Below, one piece after another: positions 1 to 30,743 of a DNA stretch of 64,000 nucleotides. Each line of letters starts with the position of its first letter. Within the stretch, counting starts at the first letter, position 1. The notes below the pieces were generated by a model that saw only the letters and a program-made list of their open reading frames with translations, did no database searches and was not told the origin of the DNA. Source of the stretch: Amoebophrya sp. A120 (Eukaryota; Protista; Dinoflagellata); the NCBI GenBank assembly GCA_905178155.1, contig CAJINV010000008.1:1736001-1800000 (forward strand), given 5' to 3'. The position numbers and the translations under genes are program-made.

Positions 1-2277
1 CATAAAAATGAACCTACTGATGAACTTAGGCATGAGAAGAAGTGCCGCTGGTCGCTTTCCCTCCTCGATTTTCAGCCATCCCATCAGCAGTTTAAGGATC
101 GGATACAACAAGTCGAGACTCGGATGGAACCAGGAGACGAACCGCGCCATGTACTCGGGTGTTTGGGCGAAACAATCCCAGTTGGCGAAGTCAAGCAAGT
201 ACTTTTCGCAAATGGCGTCACTTCCATCCCGTAAGGCCATTGCGTCGAGCGTCGGCGGACCGCCTAGCCTCGCAAAAATCGCGTCCCTGGTGCGCTTTTT
301 TAGTACTTTGTTCGGAAACAAGTCCTGCAGTTCGGCTTTCATCCTGAGTCGAGACAGCATATCGGCGACCACGTTGAAAACACCTTTCAAGTGGAGGGCA
401 ATCAGGGAGATGCCATACTGCGAAAGCAGAGTGGCGATCCGCCTTCCAATGGTCGAAAGTGTTTTTACATTCCCGACATAGAAGCTCAAGTAGTGCCGTG
501 CGCATTTGTTGTCGGTTCTGACGAGCAACAAGGAGCCTGCCAGCTCTGGCGCCGCCAGCTCGAAAGCTTCGCTCCACATCGCAAGTTCTCGCTTGTTGGA
601 CGACGACGCCGCACCGTCGATGGACCGGAAACCGTCTTTCCACCGCCTAGTATCGGAACTCGCCGTCACGCCCCATCCTTTTTTCGAAGCATCTCCCTTG
701 AGTTGTGTGATGGCCTCCGGCGGAATCCTCATCACTGCTTCTGGGTCGTCAAGCAAATTCGGCACGAACAGGTAGAGTTTTTCATCGGTTCTCTTGTGGA
801 TCTTCAACTTGGGGATTGCCTGGAGGGTGTCACGCCACCAGTACCAGTCATCCAGCAACTCGTCCGTAATGGCGATTCGTGGGTTCGCCTTCTTGTTTCC
901 GCGCGTCCAGAGTTTCACGGCACCCGACAGGGCCAAGGAGTCGTAGGAATTTCTCAAAAAGATTCGCCCCATACGTACAACAAATGTAGTAAAGGAGAGT
1001 TTTCCAACTACCGTACACAGGTGCTTGGCCTGCACGTACTTCAACCGCAGCGCGGTCAGGATCAGCTCTTCGAGTTCGGCCAGAAATTTTTTCCTCTTCG
1101 CGTCTTCCAGGAGAATGATCAGCTCGTCGGTGTGGATGGTGAAACCAATCCAATCAAACCTCATTGAAGGATATATCATTTTATCGAGCTTCTTCACTTG
1201 CCACTCATGCAGTTTCACACCGATGGCTTCGAATATCATCCTAAATCGCATCATGGCTTTGTAAACAGCTTCAAAAGAGGTTGGATTGCTTTCGTCGGTC
1301 CCCCTGAAATCGTCGACGAAGTCGAAAACTCGGATCTCCGGGTAGAGGATGCGCAGCACCCTGATACATTCCTTTATCGAACCATCGTTGACCCCGGGGG
1401 AAATCGCGAGCCCCATGCTGGCATAGAGTAGGCTGATGACCCGCCGTACTTCTGTAGAGGCGTTTTCCAAATCGTTCCGCGTCGCGCCTTGTTCAACAGC
1501 TTCGTCAATGTCGCTTGGTAATCTGGGGTCGTTCAACCCAAGTAGTCTTCTACTCAGGGCAGCTATAAGCCAATTCCAGAAGCAATCGGTAGCGTCCGCG
1601 CCAAACGCGTAAGCGTTTTGGACGAGTACACTCAGAAAATCTTCGATGCTCTTGTATTCCGTAGGTACTGGCACCAACAACTCGTTCAAACCCACCACCG
1701 ACAGGTCGCACACCATTCGCGGCCTGTGCTCCTTGATGATGATGTTCGCGGGCGACGCCGACAAATTCGGTGGCCCCGCCGACCGCGGACCCCAGGCAAT
1801 CGCCTTGCCTGTGTCAAGCAAGCGCTTTGTTTCAGCACTGGCAATTTCTTTGTGGTCTGATACCGTGGGGAAGTCTGGTCTGTCGTATGCCGGCTCGTCG
1901 CTGCTGATTGCGGTTTCGCTCAAATACGCACCTTCGGCAGAAGTTTGGAGCACGAAGCCCGCCAACCAGTGGCGTTTGAAGTAATCCGACACTTGAAGCT
2001 TGTTGATGGCCAGGGGGTTGATGGAGAGCGATTTCCATGCCGCCTCGTCCTCTTTTTTTCGAAAATCGTCCCGCGGTCCCGGTTGCTCTTCCATGTACTT
2101 CCGTACTTCCTCGCGCGAAACGGGTATTTTCCTGCCGTTCCACCATGCGTCGTTGATCGGTAACTGCTCGATTCTCTGCGTGACCTCGGACCTGATCTCC
2201 CCGTCCCACCTGGGAACAGCAAGACAGAAACGCCTCGTGCGTTCGACGATCTCATTTTGTGATAACTCGATTGGCAT
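1..2277 (-). CDS. Reverse transcriptase - RNase H - DIRS-type methyltransferase-like polyprotein (3' partial, >759 aa)
   Basis: Manual translation from ATG 2277 (MPIELSQNEIVERTRR...) is open to base 1. RT motifs: PRMVCDLSVVGLNE, AFGADATDCFWNW, ASMGLAISPG, FDFVDDFRG (FVDD at 1309-1320), FDWIGFTI. RNase H motifs: KGDASKKGWG, SSNKRELAM, LLVRTDNK, ALHLKGVFNVVADMLSR. These are followed by GPPTLDAMA...WDCF...SWFHPSLDLLYPILK, resembling the DIRS MT domain. Confidence 0.93.
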   Translation of the reverse strand, partial: MPIELSQNEIVERTRRFCLAVPRWDGEIRSEVTQRIEQLPINDAWWNGRKIPVSREEVRKYMEEQPGPRDDFRKKEDEAAWKSLSINPLAINKLQVSDYFKRHWLAGFVLQTSAEGAYLSETAISSDEPAYDRPDFPTVSDHKEIASAETKRLLDTGKAIAWGPRSAGPPNLSASPANIIIKEHRPRMVCDLSVVGLNELLVPVPTEYKSIEDFLSVLVQNAYAFGADATDCFWNWLIAALSRRLLGLNDPRLPSDIDEAVEQGATRNDLENASTEVRRVISLLYASMGLAISPGVNDGSIKECIRVLRILYPEIRVFDFVDDFRGTDESNPTSFEAVYKAMMRFRMIFEAIGVKLHEWQVKKLDKMIYPSMRFDWIGFTIHTDELIILLEDAKRKKFLAELEELILTALRLKYVQAKHLCTVVGKLSFTTFVVRMGRIFLRNSYDSLALSGAVKLWTRGNKKANPRIAITDELLDDWYWWRDTLQAIPKLKIHKRTDEKLYLFVPNLLDDPEAVMRIPPEAITQLKGDASKKGWGVTASSDTRRWKDGFRSIDGAASSSNKRELAMWSEAFELAAPELAGSLLLVRTDNKCARHYLSFYVGNVKTLSTIGRRIATLLSQYGISLIALHLKGVFNVVADMLSRLRMKAELQDLFPNKVLKKRTRDAIFARLGGPPTLDAMALRDGSDAICEKYLLDFANWDCFAQTPEYMARFVSWFHPSLDLLYPILKLLMGWLKIEEGKRPAALLLMPKFISRFIFM

Positions 2278-2428
2278 TTTCTAGTCTGTGAAAATACGCA
2301 ATGACAGACGACCAACGACAAGATGAAGCGACACGCAACACCAAATCACGGCTGACGCCACCCGATCGCCCTCACAAAGTGAAGGCGCCTGGCCTTGGCT
2401 TCAATTCTGGCTCAATTTTACTTGTTAT

Positions 2429-4825
2429 TCAGTGAAGCTTCCTCTTTTTCAACATGTCGATTTTGTTCAAGACTTCTTTCGCTTTTTCCGAGTCTACAAA
2501 AATGTCAATTCTGTTCATAACAGGGCTCCTTCTCGTGCAATTTTCCATTAGAAGCGACCATTTCACTTTGTTGAAAAGATCGCGATCGTTCGGGTCGAGC
2601 ATGTGATACACACTTTCGATATCTTTGAAATGCACGTCAGTCCTCAAATACTGAAACTTCTTCGCCACCTCCAGAATCTGCTTGCTCCCCTCCAATGGTG
2701 CTAAACCCCGGGCGATGGCTGCGATTTTGGTCGTGGTTTCCATTGCTTCCAGCGCGTACTTGGCCGCGTTCGCAATCTGGGCCGGTGTGGACTGCGCGTA
2801 GATGCCATCTATCATCTGCTCCGAAGCCCATCCTCCTAGTCGCTGCGCCAACTGCCTGTCACCTTTGGCGAAAATTTTCGCACCAGAACCGCGCAACGAC
2901 AGTCGTTTGCGCCCTGGTAGGCCGGCCATGAGAAGCGCACTGCGCACCGTATCGTTGATCCGCTGGTTTGTCATGGGCGTGAAGGTCTTGGTCTTTGTGT
3001 TAAATGACGTGAGCAGCAGCTTACATTTCTGCGATTCCGCGTTCTTGTTGTACCTTAACGAGACAATGTCGAGGTCCTTTTGGTTGTTGCAGTCCGCCGT
3101 CGTGATTTCCGGGTACTTGAATGCGTGCTTCTCTTCTAGTCTGCTTTTCAAGCTCTCCAACGCCTCGAGCAAAAAGAACGGACTTGGTTGCAAGGCGCTG
3201 GAGTCAGGTACTACAGCGTAGGACCCAACGCCAAGTCTGTCGGTTTTCGATTTCCTGATATGCAGCTTCAGACTGTCGTCCTCGCCTGAAGTAGCCCCCG
3301 CATCTGCTGTTCGTAGGTACTGTAGTTCTGATTTCCGCCTTTCGCCGAGTACGCCACACCTCAGCAGCAACATGGTTCTGACCATGTTGGCAGCCGAGAC
3401 CAAGGAATTCTTGTTTTCTTTTGCGAAGGAATACTGCGCCATCTGCTGGTCGTCCCAATTCCGTATTCTGTAGGTCCCCGCGAACTGTGTCCAAAGATCT
3501 CGCGTCTTGTGGAACAGCGCTGCGTTGATTTTGGTCAGTTCTTCCCAGGTGATGGATGTTTTCGTGTGTTCTTCGCTTTTTCCGTGGTAGCACTCCAGCT
3601 TGATCGACATTCGCAGCCGCATCACCGCCGGCGTGAAGAGCGACCTGTAGTCCAAATTCGGCACCTTCGATTCGTGGTGAAACTTGAACGCGGACAGCAA
3701 CTTCGAAAAATACGTCCATCGCATTTTTCCCGCCCCTGCCGGCGCCGTCGCGTTCACCACCCCGTGGCCTTTTGCTAGTAGTGCGTGATACGTGGTGTAG
3801 GTGATCAAGGCCAAGTCTTCGGAAGATGTGACCGGGAGCAGGCTGCTTGGTAGCTCTGCTGCCGACATCGCCGTCTCGATCAAACTCATGTATGACGCCT
3901 CCGTTGTTTCCGCGACCGATCTGCTCCGCATTTCTTGCATGGCGATTTTCACACTTTCGTATGCTTTTTCGCCCATTGCTTCTTCCAAATTCTTCGGGTT
4001 CTCCACCATTTTTTGCCAAGCTGGTACTCTCTTTTGATCGTTTGTTTTTTCCTTTGTTTTCTTTTTTGTAGTTGCCCAGTGGTCCCGAGCGAGCATGACA
4101 TGCCCATCATGCAAGTGAACAAAGGAAGAAGCATGCACAAGGATGTCCATCATGACGTCGATCAAAGTAGTAACCAGAGGCCTTGCCGAAAGTCGTGGCT
4201 TTGTCTTGAAGATGTCGAAAGCCGCGTCTTTTGCTTTGTCGATTGCCGCCTTCAACAGGCCCGGTAACCCGTCTCGTTTCGTACTGTCCGAGCAATTAGC
4301 TTCTACTTCGTTCATGTTGAACTTGTGCTGCGTCTTCTTAACGTCGAATGCCTCCACTGCAATATTCCAGAGCTCCTCGTCAAATTTTCCTTCGGTCATG
4401 CTCCCCAACGCACTGATTGCGTCAAGTTTTGGGTCAATTTGTTTCGTGTTCTGGGTGGAAGATGAACTCGGTTGAGCCGTCGAATCGTTGATCAGAATGT
4501 TGCCAAGGCCGGGGACGATTGCTCTTCGTTTCGCCGGCCGTAGTTGTTCCGGTGTGTCGAGTCCTGCTGCTTTCGCCTGCATCCGTTTGTATCTCTCCGC
4601 CGCTGTAGGTTGTGGCGCCTCAGCCACTGGGGACACCGCGCGCGGGAAGAGTGGCTGCTCGCCGCTATCCATGCTGTCTCGTCTCGCACTTGCCATGTGT
4701 CGTGCGTCTGCGCCTAGGCGCATTAGAAGCTCCTCACTCTTTCCGTATTTTTCAATGAAGGCCTGATCCGCGGCGGCATCAGCAGCCAGCTCTTTAGCTG
4801 ACGCTAATCCCTCAAACTCGCTCAT
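2429..4825 (-). CDS. Tyrosine recombinase/integrase of the retrotransposon (~798 aa from the first ATG)
   Basis: Catalytic-domain motifs GERRKSELQYL (R), LHIRKSKTDRLGVG (K), RLSLRGSGA (HxxR-like), LGGWASEQMIDGIY (W, Y). Long N-terminal extension. The ORF track start at 4897 is a TTG. Confidence 0.9.
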   Translation of the reverse strand: MSEFEGLASAKELAADAAADQAFIEKYGKSEELLMRLGADARHMASARRDSMDSGEQPLFPRAVSPVAEAPQPTAAERYKRMQAKAAGLDTPEQLRPAKRRAIVPGLGNILINDSTAQPSSSSTQNTKQIDPKLDAISALGSMTEGKFDEELWNIAVEAFDVKKTQHKFNMNEVEANCSDSTKRDGLPGLLKAAIDKAKDAAFDIFKTKPRLSARPLVTTLIDVMMDILVHASSFVHLHDGHVMLARDHWATTKKKTKEKTNDQKRVPAWQKMVENPKNLEEAMGEKAYESVKIAMQEMRSRSVAETTEASYMSLIETAMSAAELPSSLLPVTSSEDLALITYTTYHALLAKGHGVVNATAPAGAGKMRWTYFSKLLSAFKFHHESKVPNLDYRSLFTPAVMRLRMSIKLECYHGKSEEHTKTSITWEELTKINAALFHKTRDLWTQFAGTYRIRNWDDQQMAQYSFAKENKNSLVSAANMVRTMLLLRCGVLGERRKSELQYLRTADAGATSGEDDSLKLHIRKSKTDRLGVGSYAVVPDSSALQPSPFFLLEALESLKSRLEEKHAFKYPEITTADCNNQKDLDIVSLRYNKNAESQKCKLLLTSFNTKTKTFTPMTNQRINDTVRSALLMAGLPGRKRLSLRGSGAKIFAKGDRQLAQRLGGWASEQMIDGIYAQSTPAQIANAAKYALEAMETTTKIAAIARGLAPLEGSKQILEVAKKFQYLRTDVHFKDIESVYHMLDPNDRDLFNKVKWSLLMENCTRRSPVMNRIDIFVDSEKAKEVLNKIDMLKKRKLH

Positions 4826-5173
4826 GCTGTGCCAAAGAATTGCGTGGACACGAGCAACATCGCTCGGAAACGCAACCAACGAGTTCTTTCCGAACAAGTC
4901 GGAACCAAGGCACGGCCGGAGTCAATTCAATTCATAGTTTCTGTTCATGGTTGTACAAATGTCTGTCGTGTGCTCAATTCAGTGCTCTTTTTTTCCAATT
5001 TTCAGCTCTCAACTCCTTGTTTGAGGATTCATTTGTGGTATACGCAGAGCCATCTTGGGATGCGTATACCGGGGTAGGCTGTTGTTAAGTTTTTTTCTAA
5101 AAATGAAAACAATCAAATAAACAAAAACTCATATCGCAGTCATATTTCGATTTTGTCGTAATCATTTTTCCAT

Positions 5174-8009
5174 TCACTTCTGCACCACTTCGGTACACTG
5201 GTGTGGCCATTTGTCCTCGTGTAGTTGTTTGCAGCGGGAGCAAATTCCGTAGAAGGGGTTGCCCATGGCGGCGCAGTTGCGGTAGGCGTGTTTCTTGATA
5301 CTGCAGTCCCGGATCCAACAATTCCGGCAGGCCGCATCATTTGGTCCAAAATAATGATCCCAAAAGAAGAACATGGCGGTTTGCGATCGGGAAGCCGCCC
5401 GCTTGACGGCATCCACATTGTCCTGCTTGCGGAAAGAGCGGGTCTTTTCAGCTCGTTTGATCAGCGGTGTGAAGATGGCATCGACGTCCTTGTATTCCTG
5501 AGTCTGCATGTACTTGTCGTATTCTTCCTGTGTAATCGTACCACCTTTGTTCTTTTTCAACGGGGTCTGCAACGGCGTCGTTGTGTTACCTCCGCCCGGG
5601 GTTTGCAATACGTCTGTTGTTCTTTTTCTCCTGTCCTGGTCTTTCGCGTCCCTCACCGACTGCTCCGCTCTCCGATTGGCCTCCTCCAAGGTGATGTACT
5701 TCCCTTTCGACAGTACCATCCCGGAACCGGCGCCGGTGACCTTGTCCAACATCTGGGATCTACTTTCGGCTACTTGTAGTTCTTTGTTGTACAATGATTT
5801 CCACAATGCCGCTTCGACACTTGAGGAAGCTGATTTCAACATCAGTTTGGGCTTCTGGTACAACTGGCGGAGGAGGGTGTAGACCCGGCTGCGCGCGGCC
5901 TCGTCTAACTTGTCAACGTTGATGTCTCTGGTGTTGTCCGCAAGTTTTTTCGCCGTCGTTATGCTCGCGGAGAGCCAGCCCCGGCGGGCGACTGCCTAAA
6001 TTCCCGCTATTTTTTGAACCGCCCAAGCCCTAGCCTGGGCGAGCAAGCCCGCCCCGGGCAATAGGCCGAGGCGGGCCGCCTCTGCTGGGGACACAGGCGG
6101 GGCGCGGGCGACTTGCAGAACGCAGACGCCTGAGCCCATCGCCGGCGACCCGCCTGAAAGGCGCAGTGACGAAGCAACTGCGCCGCCGGCCCTTTCAACC
6201 GTTCTTGACCACGTCCCGAAATTTTCTAAGTTTGCGCCTAAATTTCAGAGCAACGGCCGACATAGGCAAAATCGCACGCAAATAAAAAAACTGGGCAAAT
6301 TAGACAAAAAATAGACAGCAGCCGAAGCTGCCAAGGCCGCTTTTTGGACAGAAATTAGACAGGAAAATAAAAAGGAAAATAGACAGGAAAATAGACAGAA
6401 AAATAGACAGGAAAATAGACAGAAAAATAGACAGGAAAATAGACAAAAACTTAGACAGGAAATTAGACACGAACTTAGACAAAAACTTAAACAGGAAACA
6501 CACGCCCCCGCAAGAGCGCCGACTGTAGGAAAAATAGCGGGAAAATAAAAAGCCTGGCGCCGGGGGCGGCTCTCAGTGAGTTATGCTCCAGACTTGCTCT
6601 TTCACTTGGGAAGCTATAAATAATATTTCGTCTATTAATGCGATCGCTAGCGTCTTGGTGTCTTCTGATCCAAAAAGTCCTTGTTTCTGCAGGTAGAAGT
6701 TCCGCATGTCCTGGTAGACTTTGGTGAACGAGTCCAGCGAAATTTTACCACCGAATTGCTTCGCGACGTGGTCGTCTTTACTGTCCTTGATTCCTAAACT
6801 CACCCCGAATGGTAAGTGTCGCCTCGTTTTCGTGATGGCGTCTTTCGCCAAGCTTTTCAAGGCTTCGGAACTGCCAAACATGTCGTCCGCTGCGGCTACT
6901 GCTTCTCGACTCTTTCTCGCCTCTTTTGCGTATGACAGAACAACCGAGGACTCGCTTTCCTTAAGTTGCTTCTGAAACGCCGGCAAGAGCGGGTACTTGA
7001 TGGCCTGCTGCGCCAGCAAGAGCTGCTCAGCCGCACCCGCAGAACTTCGCGCTCGTGCACAGACGACGGCGAAATTGCAGGCCAAGGTGATATCTGAGTA
7101 TTGTTTTCCACAATAAACAAACCCACCATCGGGTCAGATTCATGTTTATGCAGTGTCAATTCATGTTCGTTAGCAAATGTTCTTACCTTGGATCGTTTCA
7201 TCGGTTAGTTGTCCGCTCAGTTCTCGGATCACCGGCTTCAGCTCGGCACCGCCCGCGAGTAAATCGACTTGTTCACAAAACTGGCAGCACTTGCTCGTGG
7301 CGCTCGGGAAGATGACTCTTGTCGCTGGGATTCTGGTTGTTGCGCAGCCGGCGCATGCCGCGGCTGCGTCGCATCTGTCGCAGATGATGGCTGGTCGTCT
7401 CTGCATTTCCGTTCGTTTGAACTTCCTCGTACACACGCAGCATCCTACTTTGTCGATTTCCTCCTTGTACTTTTGCTTCGTCTCCTCCATCTGTTCTCCC
7501 AGCGTGGTCTTGTCCGTACCAATGGCGTGCAGTTGTGCTAGCAATTCTTCCTTCTTGTCTTCCGCAAGTTTCTTTGCTCGCTCGAGAAGGATTTCTTGTG
7601 ACTTTTTTGCTTTCAGCTCGGACTCCATCTTCTCGATGCCCTTACGCTGGCCGTCGGCCATCTGCACCATGCGCAAAAGGAGCTCTTTGTCGACTAGGTC
7701 TTTCCGTGCTTGGATCCTTTTCTTGTGCAGAATCTTCTGGTAGTCCGTGAACGCTGCTTCGTCTGCTGCTGTAACCACAAGGGCGATGCCTTGTTCAATA
7801 CACTCGGTTTCTAGTTCCTGCGTCAATTTTTTCTGGTCGTAAACGTCGACTTGCGTGATCATGGTGAAGTCTGCGCTCGTCGGTTCGAGCACCGTATGCA
7901 TCAGGGAGTCGATGCTGGCTTGTGCTTGCTGCTTGGCTGTCAGCGGTAGTTGCGGTGCGGCTCCTGCGCCCGCAGCCGCGCCAGCGCCTTCTGTTCCGCT
8001 GTCTCCCAT
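5174..8009 (-). CDS. Gag-like protein (~706 aa), three pieces: 8009-7187, 7093-6587, 5964-5174
   Basis: Removing the GT-AG intron 7094-7186 gives ...ETIQ/DITLACN. Removing 622 nt between the GTTATGC(TC) direct repeats gives ...QVWSI/TTAKKLADN. Both joins are in frame. N-terminal coiled coil plus an 8-Cys finger; C-terminal CRNC..H..C and CSRC..H..C knuckle-like motifs. Confidence 0.8.
5965..6579. mobile_element. GC-rich TIR element (MITE/introner-like) inserted in gag, with a 7-9 bp target duplication
   Basis: Direct repeat GTTATGCTC at 5958-5966 and 6580-6588. Imperfect ~50-bp TIR: TCGCGGAGAGCCAGCCCCGGCG...TTCCCGCTATTTTT versus the reverse complement of the right end, TCACTGAGAGCCGCCCCCGGCG...TTCCCGCTATTTTT. 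Confidence 0.85.
6349..6498 (+). repeat. 12-bp tandem repeat (consensus AGGAAAATAGAC), about 12 copies, inside the TIR element
   Basis: Directly visible; produces the spurious (FLSI)n ORF 6300-6503. Confidence 0.95.
7094..7186 (-). other. Canonical GT-AG spliceosomal intron (93 nt) inside the retrotransposon gag gene
   Basis: Minus strand CAAG|GTAAGAAC...AATACTCAG|ATATC. Contains in-frame stops; removal fuses ORFs 7170-8009 and 6573-7085. Confidence 0.85.
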
Positions 8010-9016
8010 CTTGGTTTCAATTCAATCCTATGGTATCGATTTGTGAGGGAAGATGAATGTGGCGGCCACTTAGTGCTTCTAATCCACATCACCTCAAGAT
8101 CGCTCGATCAAGAGAAACTGCACACGTTGCAGTGAGAAAAAAACGCGCTCCTCTCATGCGGCACGTGCAATACGTGCTCAAACAGCAGAGCGCTCACTCA
8201 ACGCTCTAATCTCTCAGATCAATCCCTAGCCAACGCGGGCACCGGTGGGGCTCCGGTGCTACTGATTCAACGCACGAACCAGCAGGGCTACCCGAGTGAT
8301 CTCTGCGATCACAAGAACAACAGTCTAGATTTACGTTTTCACTTTACACGCGGGTATCGCAAATTCATTCGTCTGAGATCGTATCTTTGGCGATCCTTCA
8401 CAGCCTAAATGAACACCTACCAACAAGAAGAAGTCGTGCACTAAGTGACCAGAAACAGCATGAGCAAGACACGCAACATGCAGAAGGGTTTCACTTCGAT
8501 GATTTACAGAAACGTCGTGGTGATGCAGTGCGAAACGAAATCGTAGTGGCAGACGCAGCGAAGTAAATCACGCAAAGGTAAAGAGCGTATCTCGCCGGCA
8601 GAGCGAAGAAAAGAAACATTTCTTTGGAACGAACAATACCCTTGTGGTCGTAACTAGCGGCACGCGTACAACTAGCTGCAACAGTAACAAATTTACAAGT
8701 GCTTTTAAAACACGAGCGTAAACAAAATACAAGGCACAACGTTCTACAATTGACAGTGAGTTGTAGGCATTCCTGCTTTTACTTTGTTTCGGTACATTTT
8801 TTGGTTTTCGGTGTACGACGGTCCGACACTGATCATATATTTTTTGAAACGCGAACGTTGTCAGTATCAATTTCCTTTTTGATTACAGGCTGCGGCGGCT
8901 GCTCGTCCTGGAGCTGAACAGCTATTGTAGCCGGGGGAACCAGCTGTCCAATCACGCACGATGAAAGAGAGGAATCTAGATAGCAAGAGGACGGTATTAG
9001 TAAACGTACAAGCTAC

Positions 9017-12000
9017 TCACTTCTCCATGTTTAACTGGGTTGCGCGCAGTGGACTGTGCATCCGATCAACACCATCTCTTTCCTGCTCCTTCACGCTGCC
9101 ATGTCTCGACGGCGACGGGGTCGTTTCATTCTTATAGCTGCCTCTTTCTCCTGCTAAACTTACGTCTCGCCCGTCCTCCTGCTCGTTTGGATCCTCTGTC
9201 GCCGACGAATCCGCCGCACCAGCATCAAAATCTTCGTTTTTCTTGTCTCTCCCCACTTGGTCTGGCGAGCCGCCGGTCGCAGTCAGGAAACTCAGGCGCT
9301 CGTTGCCAGCGGCGCTCGGCCGCGTAGCGTCCTGGACGTCGTTGCCATGCTGGTTCCCTTCTCGCTTTCGCATCACAACTGGTGAAGAGGTCGCACTTGA
9401 AGAAGGAGCATGATTACCTCTGTTCTCGGTTTGGAGACCTTTATTTTTCCCGTCGTTTGCTGCTGGCTGGTGCAAACGCTGCTGCTGATGTCGCTGCGCC
9501 AACGCTTGCTGCTGCCCTTGTTGCTGCTGGTGGCTCGCAGCAGACGTGGCCGCTGCACTGTTTGAAGTAATCTGCTCGACGATGGTTGCCCGCGCGCCGG
9601 TCCGGTTCGGCATTGGCGACAGCACCTCTTGCAATATGGCCTTGCCGTCCTTCTTTTCCAGCATCTGCCGCATGCGAGCTACATCCGTCGCCGGCTGCTG
9701 CTGCTGCTGCTGCGGCACAGCAAGTAGGTGCTGGTGCGGCACCTGCAAAAACTGATCGCGCTGGGGGTGGTTTGCGATTGTGTGGCCGCTTTGCGCTTTA
9801 TTGTTGTTGATCCCGATTCTCGGTGGGCTTGCATACCGAGCCGGCTGGCGCACAGGAGCGCGCTGCTCTTGATAAGCATTACTGGCTGCTCCCGGTGCTG
9901 CAGCTCCGAAAAGCTGCATCTGCTCGCACTGTAACCGCAAATCGTGCGGTACTCCCGCCATCTGCGGGGGTGAAAGTCGTCCGTTGGCTGCGCTGCCAGC
10001 GCCGAGCGGACCGCCAAGACCTTCGTTTTCCACAGCCGTGGCACCAGCGGAGGCATAATTCCCGACGTGTTGCAGCAGCGCATTGGAGGGATAAGCAGAT
10101 GGATTATTCGTGTGTGAAATACTGTCACCGGCACTCATGACCCCAATGCCCGCCGCACTGTTGAGACCAAAACTCACCCCTCCGCCCGAAAGATGTTGAT
10201 GTGGTGCAGCCAAACCGAAGGCACTTGTTGCGCCCATGGGCGGCGAGGCTGAGGCGCTACTGCTGTTGCTGCTGCTTGAGATACCACCAGCTCCTCCTAC
10301 AGTTGTTCCGCCAGCAGGGAGCGCGGCCGTGGTGTTGCTACTTTTGTCGACGACGACGTTGTTAAAGACGAACAGGAGTTCGTAGCACAGCAGCGGGATC
10401 ACGACCAGCACCGGGCCCAGGACGACTCCTTTCACACCGAAGTGCGAAATCCCGAGAACAACTCCCAACCCGGTTAGCCAGGGGTTGGACTCTGGAATCT
10501 CCATGTAAATGGCCACCGTCACGTTCCACCACGTGGTGAAGCGGATGCATTGCAAAAGTAGTGCTCTCGTACGAATATCGGAATCCATAACCGTACAGTT
10601 TCGGAACTTCTTTCGTTTCTGTCGACAGTAACCCTCAGCATGGGGTTAGCTGCCTGTTTTTGAAATGCAAAGCGATGGATAAATAAGCCATTTCATCTTT
10701 TGCGTATCGTCACGACCACGAGAGCTGTACTACTGTTGCACAGGATAAGATTGATCAGGAAGCAAATCGACGCCCAATAGAACGCATACGACGTGGCATC
10801 AGAAGGAGCAGATGTTGCGCTACTAGCTCTCGACAGGATGCTGGCCTGATGCTGGTGGAGCGGGCTTGTACTGTCGGCTGCTGTTGACATGTCCGAGCGA
10901 AACGAGAACATGGAGAAGGGAGGTGTTAGTATAGAGGTTGAAGTGGTTTCGGCGAAACTATTATCTGCAGCGCCGCTCGACGCCGATGCTGCAGCCGCGT
11001 GCAGGTTCCTCGCAGCCAGCAGCTGTTGCTGCTCCATGTTGCTGTAGTTCCAGTACACGTAGGAATTTGCAAGGGGGCGGAAAAATCGGCAAATAGCATC
11101 ATTTTTGTGAGCGCGCATTTTGAGGGGGCAAAAAAATTATGGCTGTTGGGGGTGTCACTACTGCTTTTTTTCCTGTTGGCCATTTAGATGCTGGCGCCAC
11201 TCTTCGTTGCCACGGTCCGCCATCCGGCCCCCCCCCGTTTTCAAATAAAACCGCAGCATTTTGTTGCAGTTGCACAGGCCTGCGGCCCTCTGACGCGGGA
11301 AGCCGCGCCCCCTCTCCCGCATCCAGTTCCGGACGCGCCCAGATATCTTCTCATCTTCCCTCTCCGGCCGGATATTCAGAAGGCGGACGCGCCAGCAGTC
11401 AAGTGCTTCCGGGGGGGGGTGCCGAAGGGGGGGGTAAGGGGGTGCGCTTGGGCTACCTCTGGGCTACCATTTTGGATGGGGCACGCAAAATCGGCAGTTT
11501 CCAATGGGGATTAGGGGGTCGGCATAGGCTACCGAAAGGGTACCCGGAAGGGGTACCCGGAAGGGGTATCCGGGAGGGGCAAAAATGCACCCCCTTGACC
11601 ACCCCCCCCTGGCCGGGCCTCCTTTTCTGAGCGAAGGGCCTCGTCGAGCCCCGGTCAAGGAGGCGGCCCGGCCACTGTTCGAAGAGCGGGCGCACGACAA
11701 AGCGTCCGGCCATCTGAACGACAGGGCACAGAACGAAGGCGCTGTGGCCTGTTTCTGGTCCGGGTGTTGCGGCATTTCCAAAGCTCAGCCATCATGTTTC
11801 CTGTGGAAAAGATGAAGTGACACGCGAGGCGTGTCGGCTTCCAAGATGTTGCGCCCCCAACAAAAAAAAAGTTTTTATCCCCCCAAAAAGTGCGCTGGCA
11901 AAAATGATGCTATTTGCCGATTTTTCCGCCCTAACTGCTCCATGTTGCTGTAGTTCCAGTATACGTAGAAATTTGCAAGAAATGCAACGTAAATCGGGTC

Positions 12001-15000
12001 CACGACGGGGATCAGCGCCATGATGCCGGCAATAATGGTCGGAATGAACACAAGCGGCAACTCGAAAAAAGAGCAAATGAACCAGGTGTAGAGGGTGTAG
12101 AAGACGCACATTTTCACCGCCGAGTACAGAATGGCGTTCAGTACGCGCTCCACGCAGCTGTAGCACATCCGGGAGCTGTCGATCACGGCCAGAAACTCGT
12201 CGAAGTAGTGCATCACCGACACCCGATATCCAAGGAAAAAAGTGTGTAAGTGTAACTTTATTGCAGGAACAGCATCACAGATTTGTTTTGCATGACAGAG
12301 AAAACCTGTCATGCGTAGCTAGTACGCGAAAACACGTATGAAAATAGCCTCTGATGCACATCCAGCATGACAGGTGTAACTGTATTGCAACGTCTGCAAC
12401 ACAAAGTTACACTTACACAGTTTTTTTCTCGCATACCCGACTCTTGAGCATGTAGAAGAGGGCGCAAATGAAGACGATCCCCTGGAAAATCACCTCCAGA
12501 AAGGTCGCCAGCCAGTGCTGCTATGCATTGCAAAACTATCGTACTAGTATAAATTGCAGTACAAATTTTATCAGAAAGAAAAATGAAATTTGTAATGCTA
12601 ATTCAGGTAGTTTGTCATGCAAGATTGCAACTAGTACGAGTACGATACTTTTGCACAGGATAGCTGCAGCAACAGCACCACGAACTGCAGAAAGCGGCTG
12701 ATGGGCGACTGGCCCTGTTGGCCTTCCTGGCCCGGCGCCCCCTGCTGGAAAAGACTCTTGAAACTAGTCAGCCTGTTGCTCTGGTACGCGGAATACACCT
12801 CGTTGAAGGCCTCACTGGACAGTCGTTTCGCCTGCGTGAAGTTCCCGCGGAAAAGCTCAAAAAGCAGCGCTCGTGCCTGCTTCAGCTCGCGCAGCGAAAA
12901 GCTGTGCGGTGGGGGAGCCTGGTGCCTCTGGTGCTCCGAAGTGGTGTTTTGCTTACTACTCGTTGGTGGCGGAGGACTGCTCCTGTTGCCAGGATTTTTC
13001 CCGATTTCATGTTCGTCCTCGGAGAGGCCGGGCATTTCATCACTCGCAAGTGTCATCTTCCGGCGCTGTTGCCTTTCGTCGCTCGATGTTTCTGGTACGT
13101 TGTCTTCTTCATCTACAGCTACACTTGGTCTTTTTACTATGCTTCCTGCTACTGTCGACTCTGTCGTTTTGGTCGTGCTGATAAACGGTGACCGTGTACT
13201 GGACTCGAGAAACCAACTCGACCACGACCGATCGGGCTCGTCTTGGTCGTTCTTGGTTCCTTCGGCTTCGTCCGCCTCAATGTTCTGATCTCCTGATGGT
13301 TGTATGTCCATCTTTTTCTTATTTCGATCCGCGGTTGATTCTTTACTTGTACTTCCGCTTGCGTTTAAGATTTCCTCTAGCCGCCGGTCGAGGTCTTCTG
13401 TTCGTTCGTTGTTTCTCTCCCCAACATATTCCTCGGCGTTGTCGGTGCTGCTGCTATGTGCTGCATTTTGCTCATCCGCGAGAAGCAAACTGTGAATAGG
13501 AACAGTTCTGACCGACGCGTCGGAGAAGAAGTAGCCGCTCAACTGTGGTGGTGGCAGAATCTTGAATTTCTGTTCCTTGACCACGGCAGAGGCATCCTTC
13601 ACTTCGGACGACGGCTCCGATGAGTTTATTTTCACGTCGCCCGTTGTACTCGCCGCACCGTCCGCAGCACTGGTCCTCGTCGCATTTTTTTCTGTAGTAT
13701 CTTCATTCTTGTATTCACGACGGCTGTCGGGACCAATGATCGATGGCCCACTTTCTCCTGACGGGTGATCTCTTGTGCTGTCATCTTCAGTTCTATGCAT
13801 GCGTGCCGTTTTAGAAGCTGTCTCGCTGCTTCGTTCCAAGTGGTGCCCAGCTGCGATCTCGACCTCATTTTCCTCAGGACCTTGCTTTTTCTGAACACTG
13901 TCACCGGCCGATGCAGGGCTATCTGCTGAGGACGACCGTGGTGTGCTCTTGCTCTTCTTCAGCGTTTTTGCGGCCGCGTCGGGGACCTTTTCATCTTCGC
14001 CAACAGTTTCATCATGGTCTCGCACTTGTTCCTGCTCTTCTGCAACGGAAGTCGCGCTCCTGATCTCGGTCGATGAGGATGGGTGTGCTGTCTCACCTCC
14101 GATTTTTTTGCTCTTTTTGGAGGACGGAGAGGATCCCTTTCCAGTTGTGTTCTTCACCGTTACTTTCTGATGTTTTTCTTCTTTCTTCAGGAGCTCCGCT
14201 TTTGCAGTTGCATCGACACTTGTCCTGTTTGACAGTGCCATGCTGTTTTTCCTAAGCTGGTCATCATCATCTCCGTCGTCTCGGAGTGAAATACTGAATC
14301 GATCTGCTACCTTTTTCTCATCCGCCGGTGGTCTCTTCCGGTGCAGCCGTACTTCCGGTGCAGCCGTGCTGTCCGTTTCCTCGCTTCGTGCAGCCGCTCC
14401 ATCACCGCCGTCTTCATTAGCTGCGACATGATCGGACGAGTGGAGACCACTCTTGTGGTCGTCCTCAATATTCTTCGTCGCTCTCGCCTGTTCAAAATCC
14501 TGACCACTGTCATGCGACGAAGTCAAAGGCAATGATCCTGACATAATTTCGGCAGTTGTTACAGTTATTTTCCCGCTGTTCTCAGACGACCTGCTTGTCG
14601 TGCCCTTCGTCAAACTACCCTTCTGGTGATGCCCTTGCTGCGAAGACGCCGGGAAACCAGCCGGCTGGTGCTGCTCTGTACCGACGGTACTGTAGGCGTC
14701 GTACACCAACTTAATGAACTCGTATTCAACCATGTTCCGCTCCAGCCACCCAGAAAAATACTCGTTGTAGTACTGCGTCAAATTCGCATTTGCTTGCTGC
14801 GCCAGCCCACCTGTTGTACTAGGTCCGGCGCGTGTTGTAGTGGTCGGCACTCCTAAAAGCGTCCTCGTGCTGTTCTTTTTATCGCCGAACTGCTCGGTGT
14901 AAAAAGTATTGCTGTCGGCGCCTTTGCCTACAGTCTGTGCTGCTTCGTGCCTGGATAGTGTACTCGCAGCGGCGTCAGAGGCAGAAAAAGAGCTCGGAGA

Positions 15001-18000
15001 GGACGTTGCTCTTCCCGCTGCTTCGTTCGTCGCTGTCGTCCCCGTGCCACCCTTACTTGTCGCAGTGGTCGTGCCAAGACCTACGCCTCCGAGGGTAGTA
15101 GAAGATGTTGTTGCGAAGTGTGACGAAGATGCTCCTTTCATCACATTGAACGCGGAAGAACCGTCGGCCGAGACCCCCGTCTGGTGCTTCTTACCAACGA
15201 CATGCATTGCCTGCGAGAGTCCGGCGAGCACCGGCAAAACGCGCTGCTGGAACAGCTCATTGCTCTCCGCGAACTCCTGTGTGGCTTGCCAAATGAAAGC
15301 AATCTCGCGACTGAGCTCCGCGGCACACAACACCATCAGCACTGCGCACAAGAAAGCAGAGGACACAATAATGAAGATGGCAAGCAGGGTGTGGATCTGG
15401 TCCGTCAACACGGTTGCCAGAACCTGGATATAAATCTCCCGAAGGAAATCAACCACGCATTCCAGGCAGGAGGAGCAGCTCGTGGAAGTCAGTTCTTCAT
15501 CTTGACCTCCATGATCGTCGACAGCCAACATGATAGGCTTTGTTCGCTCGTCCAGAAAATCTGCTTTATTTCGCACTTCACCATCTTCTTGGACATCAAA
15601 TCTTTTGTTTGTTGTAGCGCTAGCCGTGCCAGCAGCTGCATATTCGTGTTCGCTTCTCTTTTGCTGATCCTGCTCGTGTTCTGAGGCGGTTGTGGAGGAT
15701 TTCTCAGCCTCGCCACTTCTAGACACCGTCGTGGTAAGTAGGCCCGCACGATTAGCCCCAGCGGAATATTGCGGAAGATTTTCGGTCAAAACTGCGCGGG
15801 TAGAAGTTGATCCAGCGATCATTGTTCCTGTTGTAAGAACATCGACGTCCGCACCATCCTCGTGGTCCCGAATCAGTATCGCCGCTGGCAACGACGCTGT
15901 ACTATTTTGTCCTCTTTCATCTCTCGGATCCTCTTCTTCATCCTCCACAAGTAAATGGTCTCGGGTGCGTGCATCAGGAGTTGACGACGCGGACGATTTC
16001 TCCTGCTCGTCATTCTCATATTGTTCTTGGCCGCAGCTTCGTATAATTTCCGAGTGCTGCTGTACATGAGAATGAGATAAATTTTGATTTTCCTGCATCG
16101 CTGCAAATTTGGTCCGCATGAAGGTCTGGTGTGCCGCGTCCTCATCACCCCATGCTGGCAGGCGGAGCTCGGACGAAGCCCTACTTGGGTCCAGAGCAGT
16201 CGGCATCAACCCCATATCCTGCAGCTCCACAGAAGACACCGAGTGAGACTCGTCGTGGCCAAGCTGCGCTCTAGTTTCTGCTTTTCTGGAACTGGAAGTG
16301 GTCGCTCTCATAGCTCGGTCGATGCTGTGGCCTTGAAGGTCTTTCTGCACCGACGCCGACGACGAGCGCGGCTGCATCATGGTGGTCCTGCGATCGGCAT
16401 CTGGCGAAGATATGAGCGGGGGCACGGTGCTGGTACTATCTCCAGGTCGTCGTGGGGTCGCGGAATGAGCGGATGATCGCTTCATAATTTGTTGGCCCGG
16501 TCCTACTCCCCCAAGAGTGTTTGCGCCACCCCGTCCGCGTTGAAAGAGCGACTGGAAAAATGTCCGGCTGCGAGAGCTGGAGGGGCGCTGGAAGGAGGTG
16601 GATGAAGATATGGCTCCTAGTTGCTGGTGCTGCAGTCCACGATCATGATCTCCCCGGCCGGACAAACGTGCCGACGCCGAAGATGTCCGCGGCGACGACA
16701 TCCTACCACTTGCTCGTGCCAGGTACTTGGTACCATTTCCAGCTAGCCTTCCGCTGCTTGACGAGATCATGCCAGAAGTTGAGGAAACTTTGCCGTAGCC
16801 GCTGCCCGGTGCTACCTGATCCCGACGTTGCGTCAACCAATTGAGGAGCCCGTCTACTAGGCGAATGAGAATCAGGAGGGAGTAGGCGACGAGGCAGGAA
16901 AAATAGAGGAAACTCGCGGTGGCGCCGAGCGGGTCAAACAAGTCCGGGTCGGCCTTGTAGAGCAGGAAAACCGCGCGCGCAAGTACCGCCCGGTACAGGA
17001 GCGCGAACCAGGGCCAGGAGAAATCGGCCGAGTTGGTGGACGAGGAGGAGACAAAGTTCACGAGTGGCTGGGCCACCAGCCAATACAGCACCCGCGCGAG
17101 CAAGTCAATCAAAATCGGCAGGTCCCGGAAAAAAAAGGACGCGAAAGACTCATACCGACTCCACCACCGCTTCTCCTGGATGCCGAACAGATGCGAAAAA
17201 AACCACGATCGTTTCGTCTGCTCCAGTCTGGTGCTTCGATTGTTGTACAGCGAGGACCCTCGCCTGACGAGAGGACCTCCGGATGGACGACCAGGATGAT
17301 GCAATTCTGAAGCACCTTCCTGACCCGGGGATCTGGACAGAATCGACGAGGAACCGAGAGTTTTTACTCCTGCCGCCGTCTGGTCTACTCCTCGCCTTGA
17401 AGTAGTTGCACTAATAGGTGCACCAAGATCCATTGTGGTGAAGATTTCCGCAGGGGCTGGACCCTGAGTAGAAGATCGGAGAGAACCTCCCGCTCCTGCA
17501 ACTCCCGTGTGCTGGTGTAGGTGCTGTTGTATTGGTGACAGTACTCCTTGGTGTTGCTGCTGTGCAGCTACCAGTCTGCGCCGCAACGTCGCTGACGTGG
17601 AAGACGAGCTGCCTCCAGGTGGAGAAGACATGGAAGTGGTCCTGACAGGCGGAGCATCCGCACCCGAGGAGGACCGCAGCGGAGGTTGCAGCTGCGACTC
17701 TTGGTTATCAGGATCAACGATCCGAGACCGAGTTGTGCGGCGACCCTCATGTTCTTGCAGCCTGTCGATGTAGTGCTCCATGATCTCCTCTTGTTGCTCT
17801 TCTTGAAAAAAAGCCAAGCTGGAACTCTCGTTTTCCTCTAGCACCAGGGATCGCAGCCGATTATTGTCTTCGTCTTCCTTGAATGGAGTGAAAAAATGTT
17901 CGCTGTGTCTGGCAGTAAAAGTGTGTGAGTATGTACTGATGCGCGGCAGTTTCTGCCACACACAAGAAAGTCGTCCTTGCTTGCGCATGCCGCTTGTACA

Positions 18001-18821
18001 GGCAAGAGCAACACCGCGTGGCGGATGGAAATGACAAAATATATCAGCCTTTCAATAAACTTCTTCTATCAGCAAGCGGATCGGCCGCAATTATGGAGTC
18101 CTACTTTCACCGACGATGCAAAGAACTTTCAGCGCTGCAAAAGTTACTTGTCGCGATCAGTATCCTATCGCACTTTTCCAGAACAAACTCTGACATGATT
18201 TATACTTTCGTTTGATAGCTCGTCGTCCGAGAGGAAAAACGCCAAAACCCAGACAAAGAGCTGTTTCTTTACCTCAAACATGGGGATGGAAGCCACGGTC
18301 GCCCAGAAGAGCGCCAAAAAGTAACTCTCCAGCACGAAGTAGTTCAGGTAAAAGATCCCAACGCATCCGGGAAAAAACACCAATCCCCATCCATTTTTTG
18401 CATGGAAAATAGTGGATTTTATGCATGTTTTGCATGACAAATTGGATGAGGATGGGTGTTTTTCCCTCGATACAACGACAAACAATCCGATCAGGTGCAC
18501 CACCAGATGGATGAAGGCAGAGTGCACCGTGGTGCGCCGGTCAATCGCCATTTGCTGTTGCGCATTCGGGGCGGGTGTGCCTGGTTGCAAAAAAGGCGGC
18601 GCGCCACCTGAGGCTGCTCCAATCGTAGAACCACCAGGCGTTGCAACTGCTCCGGGCATCATGGTAGGTGCGGGAGAGAATCCGCCGCCTGTCCCTGTCG
18701 TAGTTCCTGGGACAACTTGCGGCCCAAAGTTCTGATGATTCTGATAAACCTGCTGACCCGGTGCCGGCATTCGAACACGACTCTGGGCCGGACCAGAAAC
18801 AAAAGCACCACTGCTGCTCAT
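9017..18821 (-). CDS. TMEM245 / AI-2E-family-like multi-pass membrane protein with large low-complexity insertions (~2,600 aa, 7 exons)
   Basis: Motifs LFWATVASIPMFEVKKQL, KMCVFYTLYTWFICSFFELPLVFIPTIIAGIMALIPVV and MEIPESNPWLTGLGVVLGISHFGVKGVVLGPVLV. Introns of 114, ~320, 146, 214, 906 and ~200 nt each preserve or restore the frame when removed. Confidence 0.8.
10544..10747 (-). mobile_element. Introner (family B, TGCAAAAGTA-type TIR), eroded ends
   Basis: Inverted repeat ATGCATTGCAAAAGTAGTGCTCTCGT / ACGAGAGCTGTACTACTGTTGCACAGGAT. Removal of 200 or 209 nt joins the flanking frames (..LIRFTTWWN). Confidence 0.75.
11074..11934. mobile_element. GC-rich TIR element (~60-bp TIRs) acting as an intron, flanked by a 45-bp direct repeat
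   Basis: GGGCGGAAAAATCGGCAAATAGCATCATTTTTG at the left end and its reverse complement at the right end. Direct repeats 11029-11073 and 11935-11979 (43/45 identical), offset 906 nt. Confidence 0.9.
12227..12435 (-). mobile_element. Introner, TAT...ATA termini, 5-bp DR CCCGA
   Basis: Inverted repeat AAAAAAGTGTGTAAGTGTAACTTT / AAAGTTACACTTACACAGTTTTTT. 214-nt removal gives FYMLKS/RVSVMHY. Confidence 0.9.
12522..12662 (-). mobile_element. Introner (family B), TAT...ATA termini, 5-bp DR GCTGC
   Basis: Inverted repeat TATGCATTGCAAAACTATCGTACT / AGTACGATACTTTTGCACAGGATA. 146-nt removal gives VLLLQ/HWLATFL. Confidence 0.9.
17903..18219 (-). other. Degenerate non-canonical intron (~320 nt), boundaries uncertain
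   Basis: Decayed inverted repeat (AAAAGTG...TACTGAT / ATCAGTA...CACTTTT). 320-nt removal at TCG joins FLSDDE/HFFTPF in frame. Confidence 0.55.
18364..18472 (-). mobile_element. Introner, 5-bp DR CAACG; stop-free, in-frame 114-nt intron
   Basis: Inverted repeat GGGAAAAAACACCAATCCCCATCCA / TGGATGAGGATGGGTGTTTTTCCC. Removal restores the hydrophobic helix HLIGLFVV/GIFYLNY. Confidence 0.85.
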
Positions 18822-30200: not shown

Positions 30201-30743
30201 TCTCTTGCTGGCACTGCTCGCGCCGTTATTAAGAGTTTTACCAGCAAACAGCTGATGCGAGCAAAGTGCAACATGCTCCGCTAGAAACTCGGCGAGTATC
30301 TTGCACACGAAAAACGATGGTTTCAGGGTAATCACTTGGAACAGATTTGCCAGCTGCGTGCCGAGTTGGCTCTGATAATCATCAGAAATCGTTCCTGCTT
30401 CGGCGGAGAAGACACCTTCCGCAGCAGGATTAGTGTTGGTCCTGCTGCTTACAGCGGATGCTGCTTCCACTCCAGCGCGGCCGGGGAAAAAAATGTCTTC
30501 CAACTTTCCTCTCAGCTCCGCAACCGGGTTAGCAGAGTTGCCGTGATAGTTGTTGTGGTCCTTTCTCTTATTCCCTCGGTAGTTGTTTCGCTTGTTGTTT
30601 TTTCGAAAGCCATTGTGCTGCTTGCCGCCCGTCCAGTGCTGGTTAGGGTTCCAGCTTCCGTCTACCACCATATTATTTACCGCCATGTTGTTCTGTCCGC
30701 CGGCGCGATGTGAGGAGCTCGTGGCACCACCCGTAGTGGCCAT
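27232..30743 (-). CDS. Mut-7/EXD3-like DEDDy 3'-5' exonuclease (~1,060 aa, 2 exons)
   Basis: ExoI VGFDTEWRP and ILQLAF; ExoII KLVGFGLKNDL; after intron removal GSLADLAKTVYGKPLSK...NWEVRP...IEYAALDA (ExoIII). Confidence 0.9.
27405..27725 (-). mobile_element. Introner, TAT...ATA termini, 5-bp DR ACTCC
   Basis: Inverted repeat AGGAAAAATCCCCCCTCCC.ATATCAAAA. 326-nt removal gives KRG/SLADL and is required to complete the exonuclease domain. Confidence 0.93.

What the first reader, a model, noticed from the sequence alone, without database searches (positions are those of the whole stretch)
1..8500. YR retrotransposon with gag - YR - RT/RH/MT order in a probable alveolate genome
Seen: three separate, non-overlapping ORFs with the tyrosine recombinase upstream of the RT; the RT ORF is missing from the ORF track. 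Established: DIRS1, PAT and Ngaro elements generally place YR downstream of RT/RH. YR-before-RT is the VIPER/TATE arrangement of kinetoplastids, while a C-terminal MT domain is a DIRS1/PAT trait. Inference: the combination of VIPER-like order, MT-like domain, FVDD catalytic motif and ~800-aa YR may be an undescribed YR-retroelement lineage. YR and the visible part of RT are uninterrupted, suggesting recent activity.
Basis: partly seen in the sequence, partly recalled or inferred. Interest (0 to 1): 0.85.

Follow-up and report, generated by a model that had tools for sequence, protein, structure and literature searches.

The report
Gene-shuffled recombinase retrotransposon in Amoebophrya
This is a real jumping gene that carries a reverse transcriptase and, ahead of it, a DNA-splicing recombinase; related elements keep the same block of genes behind the reverse transcriptase instead, so this order likely arose by rotating the gene set, and this particular copy is probably disabled by a small inserted element.

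Summary
The element lies on the minus strand from about 8403 to past base 1 and has four ORFs, not three: a Cys-rich ORF1, a zinc-knuckle gag-like ORF2, YR (798 aa) and Pol (RT, RNase H, degenerate Dam-like MT). A 613-nt MITE splits ORF2, so this copy is probably not autonomous. Its best Pol relatives are Amoebophrya proteins, and two AT5.2 gene models also run YR then Pol. Contig topology points to split direct repeats, with terminal repeat A at 8263-8403 (inferred; the 3' end lies outside the window). The claimed novelty is overstated: shuffled YR/Pol order is reported for Symbiodinium DIRS, FVDD is common in the family, and TATE YRs are as long. The new result: in four other loci of the same Pol clade, parts of the same ORF1-gag-YR block lie downstream of Pol. 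The Amoebophrya order therefore looks like a derived circular permutation, independent of VIPER. No tree with labelled DIRS1, PAT, Ngaro or VIPER references could be built. The scan noted a YR-first element in another, euglenid-like genome, but found no sequence look-alike. Verdict: new variant of a known kind.

The parts
8263..8413 (-). 5' terminal repeat A (inferred). The element probably starts near 8403; 8403-8413 is a short stretch shared with the flank or the next repeat, a possible crossover core.
   Evidence: own unitig in run X1 at depth 58.3 against 33.2 inside the element and 25.8 in the flank; a loose end of 19 nt beyond 8413; X3/X4 contigs diverge after 8403; the X4 host contig ends at 8404.
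8219..8262 (-). Conserved hairpin just inside repeat A (7-bp stem)
   Evidence: Fold; 8219-8258 is kept with 2 differences in a diverged 8018-nt contig.
7170..8021 (-). ORF1 (ATG near 8009): coiled-coil-like region plus a C-terminal Cys-rich, PHD-like finger (label recalled; no Pfam hit)
   Evidence: homologous to L105:7224-7838, score 61, 0 of 1000 shuffles.
6580..7133 (-). ORF2 (gag-like), 5' part
   Evidence: In frame with the 3' part when the MITE is skipped: 445 open codons, first Met at codon 85.
5967..6579 (.). 613-nt MITE-like insertion: imperfect terminal inverted repeats, 9-bp target duplication (5958-5966 and 6580-6588), internal 12-bp tandem array
   Evidence: summed contig depth 168-232 in its bins and an empty-site joint 5957>6580 in one X1 contig (short side only 21 nt).
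5174..5957 (-). ORF2 (gag-like), 3' part with a double zinc knuckle
   Evidence: homologous to L104:3808-4830, score 77, 0 of 1000 shuffles.
2429..4825 (-). Tyrosine recombinase, 798 aa: N-terminal binding domain, R529, K559, LxxR677 (His replaced), W698, Y708 (stop-to-stop numbering; residue roles recalled)
   Evidence: PHROG phrog_1 E 3.5e-4; relatives P0001 E 2e-39 and P0007 E 6e-16; positions.
1..2277 (-). Pol: RT (about 1761-1129; D228, FVDD 320-323), RNase H (about 699-349; D529, E564, D589, D639), Dam-like MT (about 297-1; NPP triplet reads HPS). Runs off the window; relatives suggest about 50-60 more residues.

Best explanation
This is a low-copy tyrosine-recombinase (DIRS-order) retrotransposon with the gene order Cys-rich ORF1, zinc-knuckle gag-like ORF, YR, RT/RNase H/MT-like Pol, in a host that is likely Amoebophrya and likely bounded by split direct repeats; it would copy its RNA into DNA, close it into a circle through the repeats, and insert by YR recombination at a short matching site. 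Shown: the four ORFs, the RT and RNase H folds with their acidic residues, the MT-like tail, the YR motifs, a doubled terminal segment, and the MITE in ORF2. Inferred: the A1-ORFs-B1-A2-B2 layout, the circle, the crossover core near 8403-8413, and an MT that is probably inactive (NPP reads HPS). This copy probably needs gag in trans. The YR-first order is likely a derived rotation of a Pol-first ancestor that kept the ORF1-gag-YR block intact, and independent of VIPER/TATE.
For: Domains: (of 60 relatives scanned, out of 150 listed: 31 hit RVT_1, 19 Dam, 5 C5-methylase at E<=0.01). Order kept: P0001 and P0007 of Amoebophrya AT5.2; X1 record 2 spans 937-4972 unbroken across the YR-Pol spacer, and a diverged 8018-nt contig matches at 1038, 1293-1326 (FVDD), 2481-2545 and 8219-8258 in order. 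Repeats: unitig 8263-8413 at about twice the depth; in run X6 the same host flank is preceded by A plus 328 different bases, as a solo A-B remnant would be; X3/X4 show the same left neighbour plus A at another flank. Selection: 15 of 33 coding differences from the X1 copy are synonymous, against 28% expected (p 0.027), with no stops. Pol-first relatives: L105 has Pol, ORF1-like, knuckle, YR-N; L103 has Pol, Cys-rich ORF, knuckle; L104 has Pol, knuckle ORF, weak YR-N; L106 has Pol, Cys-rich ORF. They branch outside the Amoebophrya group at two successive nodes.
Against: The 3' end is not in the window and no genome was held, so the repeat layout rests on unitig topology; inverted repeats are not excluded. 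YR support from libraries is weak (one PHROG hit, none in Pfam); the His of HxxR is replaced in all three Amoebophrya YRs, and P0007 lacks the Tyr. The Pol-first loci are truncated contigs: none shows a YR catalytic domain, L104's YR-N is marginal (20 of 500 shuffles with the two-sequence profile, 0 of 500 with three), and L105-L108 are frameshifted. The absence of YR upstream of their Pol rests on a three-sequence profile. Trees are quick or FastTree, midpoint-rooted, and have no labelled references; the YR-first rows sit in a 6-row group of support 93 only. The P0001/P0007 fusions are automated gene models.
Confidence: 0.72

Rival explanations
1. It is a DNMT-less member of the already described Symbiodinium DIRS group with YR before Pol, so the order is inherited within dinoflagellates and is already in print.
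For: PMC5890265 reports two SymbioDIRS-Dnmt3 architectures with shuffled integrase/Pol order, A-coding-B-A-B repeats, DNMT-less DIRS relatives and RTs that Pfam detects poorly. Five Pol relatives carry a C5 methylase.
Against: All five C5-methylase Pols fall in a separate 17-row clade (100); the window sits in a 29-row clade (100) with Pol-first members. Those five proteins are unnamed, so equating them with SymbioDIRS is itself an inference. Fig. 1e of the paper was not seen.
Confidence: 0.15
2. [quoted passage not shown]
For: MT domain present; unitig depth does not tell orientation; DIRS1-like elements were reported in the alveolate Perkinsus marinus.
Against: The X6 contig, with a different 328-nt neighbour of A at the same host flank, fits a solo A-B remnant best, though an inversion between ITRs could mimic it. 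The ORFs do not overlap.
Confidence: 0.08
3. It is a VIPER/TATE relative that gained an MT domain, and YR-first is the ancestral order.
For: Same order and long YR as TATE; VIPER has split direct repeats and solo A-B forms.
Against: VIPER and Ngaro lack MT. The nearest Pols with known context outside Amoebophrya are Pol-first. No VIPER sequence was available for a direct test.
Confidence: 0.05

Closest known systems
PAT-like YR retrotransposons (Pat1, TOC, Kangaroo; order DIRS)
   Same: RT/RH/MT Pol, zinc-finger gag, YR, split direct repeats (inferred here); the position and orientation of YR and of the internal repeats vary in this group.
   Different: YR upstream of Pol on the same strand; four non-overlapping ORFs including a PHD-like ORF1; HxxR His replaced; MT triplet HPS. 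Phylogenetic membership untested.
SymbioDIRS-Dnmt3 (de Mendoza 2018, PMC5890265)
   Same: Dinoflagellate host, A-coding-B-A-B repeats, shuffled YR/Pol order in one architecture, RT poorly hit by Pfam.
   Different: No C5 DNMT in the visible Pol; the C5-methylase Pols retrieved form a different clade.
VIPER/TATE (VIPER-like; Ribeiro 2019, PMC6681497)
   Same: gag-YR-RT/RH order, long YR, split direct repeats, solo A-B remnants, host with spliced-leader trans-splicing.
   Different: MT domain present; extra ORF1; the nearest relatives are Pol-first, which suggests convergence.

Membership tests
DIRS order (YR retrotransposons) | RT plus RNase H of LTR-like type | tested here: met
DIRS order (YR retrotransposons) | Tyrosine recombinase in place of a DDE integrase | tested here: met
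   PHROG integrase E 3.5e-4; motifs kept in P0001; His of HxxR replaced; no fold was predicted.
DIRS order (YR retrotransposons) | gag-like ORF | tested here: inconclusive
   Double zinc knuckle kept in relatives; no capsid fold tested.
DIRS order (YR retrotransposons) | No target-site duplication; short crossover core | not testable with these tools
   The 3' end lies outside the window; only the 8403-8413 overlap is seen.
PAT-like | Dam-like MT at the Pol C-terminus | tested here: met
   (12.3 bits, 0 of 1000 shuffles); direct phage Dam profile only marginal.
PAT-like | Split direct repeats A1-B1-A2-B2 | tested here: inconclusive
   Contig topology favours them; B was not read.
PAT-like | RT groups with Pat1/TOC/Kangaroo | not testable with these tools
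   No labelled reference sequences could be fetched; trees hold mostly unnamed proteins.
DIRS1-like | Inverted terminal repeats plus ICR | tested here: inconclusive
   Not favoured but not excluded.
VIPER-like | YR ORF upstream of RT/RH ORF | tested here: met
   order in TATE.
VIPER-like | No MT domain | tested here: not met
   MT-like domain present; criterion.
Ngaro-like | No MT domain; YR downstream of Pol | tested here: not met
   Ngaro layout.
SymbioDIRS-Dnmt3 | C5 cytosine methyltransferase inside Pol | tested here: not met
   No Pfam C5 hit in the 759 visible residues; the missing tail is about 50-60 aa by alignment.

The most novel reading that the evidence does not exclude
An undescribed, widespread protist clade of MT-bearing YR retrotransposons is built from two modules, Pol and a PHD-gag-YR block, and has switched between Pol-first and YR-first layouts by circular permutation, plausibly through its circular DNA intermediate. 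Amoebophrya fixed the YR-first form, with a His-less recombinase and a degenerate methylase, converging on the VIPER/TATE layout; this would be a fifth architecture within the DIRS order.
Probability: 0.4. Interest if true: 0.7.

Novelty: new variant of a known kind. Interest (0 to 1): 0.5.

Why it matters
Gene order is used to separate VIPER-like elements from the other YR retrotransposons. Close relatives here differ only by rotation of the same gene block, which would show that order is labile and offer a testable route (integration of a circle at a new opening point) for such rearrangements. It also adds a Pfam-invisible retrotransposon family to Amoebrya-type (syndinian) genomes, where most repeats are unclassified (PMC7789003), and offers a natural His-less tyrosine recombinase for biochemistry.

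Tried and rejected
No whole genome was held, so copies could not be aligned. Word-index homologue searches found nothing; the exact ORFs are not in the protein collection (0 of 5). The single-sequence fold was useless (pLDDT 36). Single-sequence scans of Pfam, NCBIfam and PDB gave only chance-level hits, apart from an on-target RNase H alignment to CaMV at E 0.8. Related-locus scans with single proteins found 0 relatives among 20 metagenome and 17 viral candidates, and 0 of 64 viral candidates with alignment A4. Two motif scans of viral contigs with a recalled RH-MT pattern gave 80 chance loci, none a retroelement. A phage Dam profile lands on aa 663-697 but is not significant alone (hhalign probability 1%; 123 of 1000 whole-protein shuffles and 11 of 1000 tail shuffles). 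The whole-Pol fold search did not test the MT domain. Rfam: nothing meaningful in 4900-9000. Raw RNA runs X8 and X9 had 0 reads even on the host gene, so they are no test; no RNA holder was on record. X3 contigs do not cover ORF1 or ORF2, which is no evidence either way. Self-repeats in L103-L108 showed no clear A/B repeats. The ESM Atlas could not take the window's proteins; for the A25 homologue it returned RT/RNase H/Dam clusters. Literature: six searches; 'Amoebophrya' with 'DIRS' gave 1 unrelated paper, and the circular-permutation search gave 1 (not read). Repbase and subscription reviews are not in the library, so absence from print is not established.

Full report
Observation. Stop-to-stop ORFs on the minus strand are 7170-8021, 6573-7133, 5174-5995, 2429-4921 and 1-2280, the last open at the window edge. 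None of the single proteins hits RT, RNase H, Dam or integrase in Pfam or PDB at a significant level. The YR ORF hits PHROG integrase at E 3.5e-4 to 6.4e-4 over its C-terminal box. A full phmmer search of Pol against 1.84 billion representatives gave 587 hits at E<=0.001 and 26 at E<=1e-30. Of 60 of the 150 listed hits scanned with Pfam at E<=0.01, 31 hit RVT_1, 19 Dam and 5 a C5 methylase. A 96-row profile finds CaMV RT at 1e-49 and Ty3 RT at 4e-41. The AF2 model from that alignment (pLDDT 91.7) matches retroviral and Ty3 RTs and RNase H1. RT D228 and D322/D323 and RNase H D529, E564, D589 and D639 are invariant or nearly so among 10 close relatives. A profile of 10 Dam-positive relatives hits aa 662-741 (12.3 bits, 0 of 1000 shuffles). 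The catalytic NPP triplet (bioRxiv 10.64898/2026.05.21.726589, section read) reads HPS here, against FPP in 24 and NPP in 9 of 62 scored rows, so the MT is probably inactive. FVDD is in 33 of 66 ungapped rows and is a clade trait.

Host. The top named Pol relatives are from Amoebophrya sp. AT5.2 (P0001, P0007) and A25 (P0002). The window's inverted-repeat elements begin with TAT, seven bases and a run of A, as described for Amoebophrya introners (PMC7789003, passages). A syndinian host is therefore likely.

A 613-nt insertion (5967-6579) with imperfect terminal inverted repeats and a 9-bp duplication splits one 445-codon ORF2. It is multi-copy in DNA run X1, and one X1 contig joins 5957 to 6580 (short side 21 nt). 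So the element has four ORFs: ORF1 with a Cys-rich, PHD-like end (label recalled), ORF2 with a double zinc knuckle, YR, and Pol. This copy probably cannot make gag unless the insert is spliced out, which was not shown. X1 holds a copy about 99% identical in the element while the flank 8384-11104 has 0 differences. Of 36 listed differences in 1-4492 (36 of the 37 in those two contigs), 33 are coding: 15 synonymous, 18 not, no stops; p 0.027 against 28% expected. Element depth is about 34 against 26 for the flank, so the family is low-copy.

Termini (inferred from unitigs). In X1, 8263-8413 is its own unitig at depth 58.3, about the sum of the internal (33.2) and flank (25.8) depths. A second right-hand branch shows only 19 loose letters, as a junction into another repeat would. 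In X6, the same host flank is preceded by 8285-8403 and then 328 different bases; X3 and X4 show that same neighbour plus A at another flank, diverging after 8403. This is what A1-ORFs-B1-A2-B2 elements and their solo A-B remnants give (solo forms in PMC8547959 and PMC6681497). Contigs cannot give orientation, so inverted repeats remain possible. X1 and X3 contigs run 221 and 335 nt past base 1, and relatives have about 50-60 more residues, so Pol probably ends just outside the window.

Is the order real and shared? X1 record 2 spans 937-4972 without a break across the YR-Pol spacer. An 8018-nt diverged X1 contig matches only at 1038, 1293-1326 (the FVDD codons), 2481-2545 and 8219-8258, in that order; what lies between was not read. 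P0001 holds YR at 246-667 (29%, E 2e-39) then Pol at 774-1463; P0007 holds a YR C-terminus (26%) then Pol. All three YRs have an aliphatic residue in place of the His of HxxR, and P0007 also lacks the Tyr.

Pol-first relatives. A metagenome scan gave 9 confirmed loci among 135 candidates; L102, L109 and L110 are too short for context, and L106-L108 are near-identical, which leaves 4 independent loci. In L105, Pol (2631-6028) is followed by an ORF1 homologue (score 61, 0 of 1000 shuffles), a knuckle ORF and a YR N-terminal domain (21 bits, 0 of 500). In L104, Pol is followed by an ORF2 homologue (score 77, 0 of 1000) and a weak YR N-terminus. L103 has a Cys-rich ORF and a knuckle after Pol, and L106 a Cys-rich ORF (both judged by eye). 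No YR was detected in the 1.0-3.2 kb upstream of Pol in L103, L104, L105, L107 or L108, by a three-sequence profile or PHROGs; that is a weak negative. In a 69-row RT/RH FastTree (five long-branch or duplicate-covered rows and two duplicates dropped), the window, P0001, P0007 and P0002 lie in a 6-row group (93) inside a 10-row clade (99). L103 and L106 are sister to that clade (87), and L104 lies in the next clade out, all within a 29-row clade (100) (an earlier 66-row tree agrees). Parsimony thus favours Pol-first as ancestral, and the Amoebophrya order as a rotation of Pol from front to back. Truncated contigs and tandem arrays remain a caveat.

Mechanism. By analogy with the published model for DIRS elements (PMC7192593, passages; the circle is a model even there), a transcript from A1 to B2 would be reverse-transcribed, the repeats would restore the ends and close a circle, and YR would recombine the junction with a short matching site, leaving no target duplication. 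None of these steps was observed here. How four separate ORFs are translated is open. GAATTGA occurs 8 times on the window's minus strand, 6 of them in the 932 nt of ORF spacers (p 3e-10, motif chosen after looking). The Pol and YR start codons follow pyrimidine-rich AG sites, which would suit the host's spliced-leader trans-splicing; untested. Run X3 lacks a host intron, so it behaves as RNA, and holds Pol and YR pieces at low depth: a weak hint of transcription.

Comparison with print. DIRS1 and PAT carry MT, while Ngaro and VIPER lack it (PMC3266345, PMC4157794, PMC3783388; passages). TATE has RT/RH as ORF3 and YR alignments of 727 and 982 aa (PMC6681497; abstract and sections 3, 6, 7, 9, 13). 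PMC5890265 states that two SymbioDIRS-Dnmt3 structures differ by shuffled order of the integrase and Pol ORFs (passages; figure not seen; the supplement search returned only peer-review text, so its supplementary figures may bear on this). The five C5-methylase Pols that I retrieved are unnamed and form a separate clade. PMC12477816 and PMC12130899 (passages) describe no such element. No Amoebophrya DIRS description turned up in six searches, but Repbase and subscription reviews were not searchable.

Verdict. The element is real and belongs to the DIRS order. It works like a PAT-type element and is not a member of VIPER, Ngaro or SymbioDIRS-Dnmt3 by the features tested. YR-before-Pol with a methylase is not unprecedented in dinoflagellates. 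The apparent rotation of a conserved four-gene set within one clade is the interesting part and is moderately supported. New variant of a known kind; interest 0.5.

Noticed in passing
window 5967-6579: Multi-copy MITE-like element with a 9-bp target duplication (Mutator-like length, recalled) and an internal 12-bp tandem array; unlike the TAT-type introners of this genome.
   Followed up: partly
window 8023, 7162, 4980, 4933, 4928, 2407 (minus strand): GAATTGA is concentrated in the element's ORF spacers (6 of 8 in the window); the X1 copy has a 1-nt deletion at 7162 that trims one to AATTGA; not enriched in L103-L108. Function unexplained.
   Followed up: partly
window 10539-10747, 11075-11934, 12227-12435, 27405-27725, 39643-39905, 54207-54775: Inverted-repeat, introner-like elements; 10539-10747 is skipped in run X3 contigs with non-canonical ends.
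   Followed up: no
window 9017-18051 (minus strand): The host gene next to the element's 5' end is a long, intron-split membrane protein with a weak AI-2E/TMEM245-like hit (E 3e-4); in X6 its contig runs on through the solo repeat.
   Followed up: no
run X1 record 7, matching window 8263-8312: A 4544-nt contig with a diverged copy of the A-repeat end and a B-like neighbour: probably a terminus of a further related family.
   Followed up: no
P0053, P0061, P0064, P0099, P0136: Pol relatives carrying a C5 methylase (4 of 5 also a Dam hit), in two domain orders (before RT, or after RT), as described for SymbioDIRS-Dnmt3; unnamed in the collection.
   Followed up: partly
P0001 aa 1532-1697: JmjC/cupin domain at the end of the AT5.2 gene model; probably a fused neighbouring gene, not checked.
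   Followed up: no
L103 1164-1191 and 6599-6626: 28-nt direct repeat on either side of Pol; could mark an internal repeat between Pol and the ORF1-gag-YR block, as in nematode-form PAT, but is too short to call.
   Followed up: no
window 59222-61231 and 27720-30782: Host ORFs with a RING finger and a weak 3'-5' exonuclease hit.
   Followed up: no
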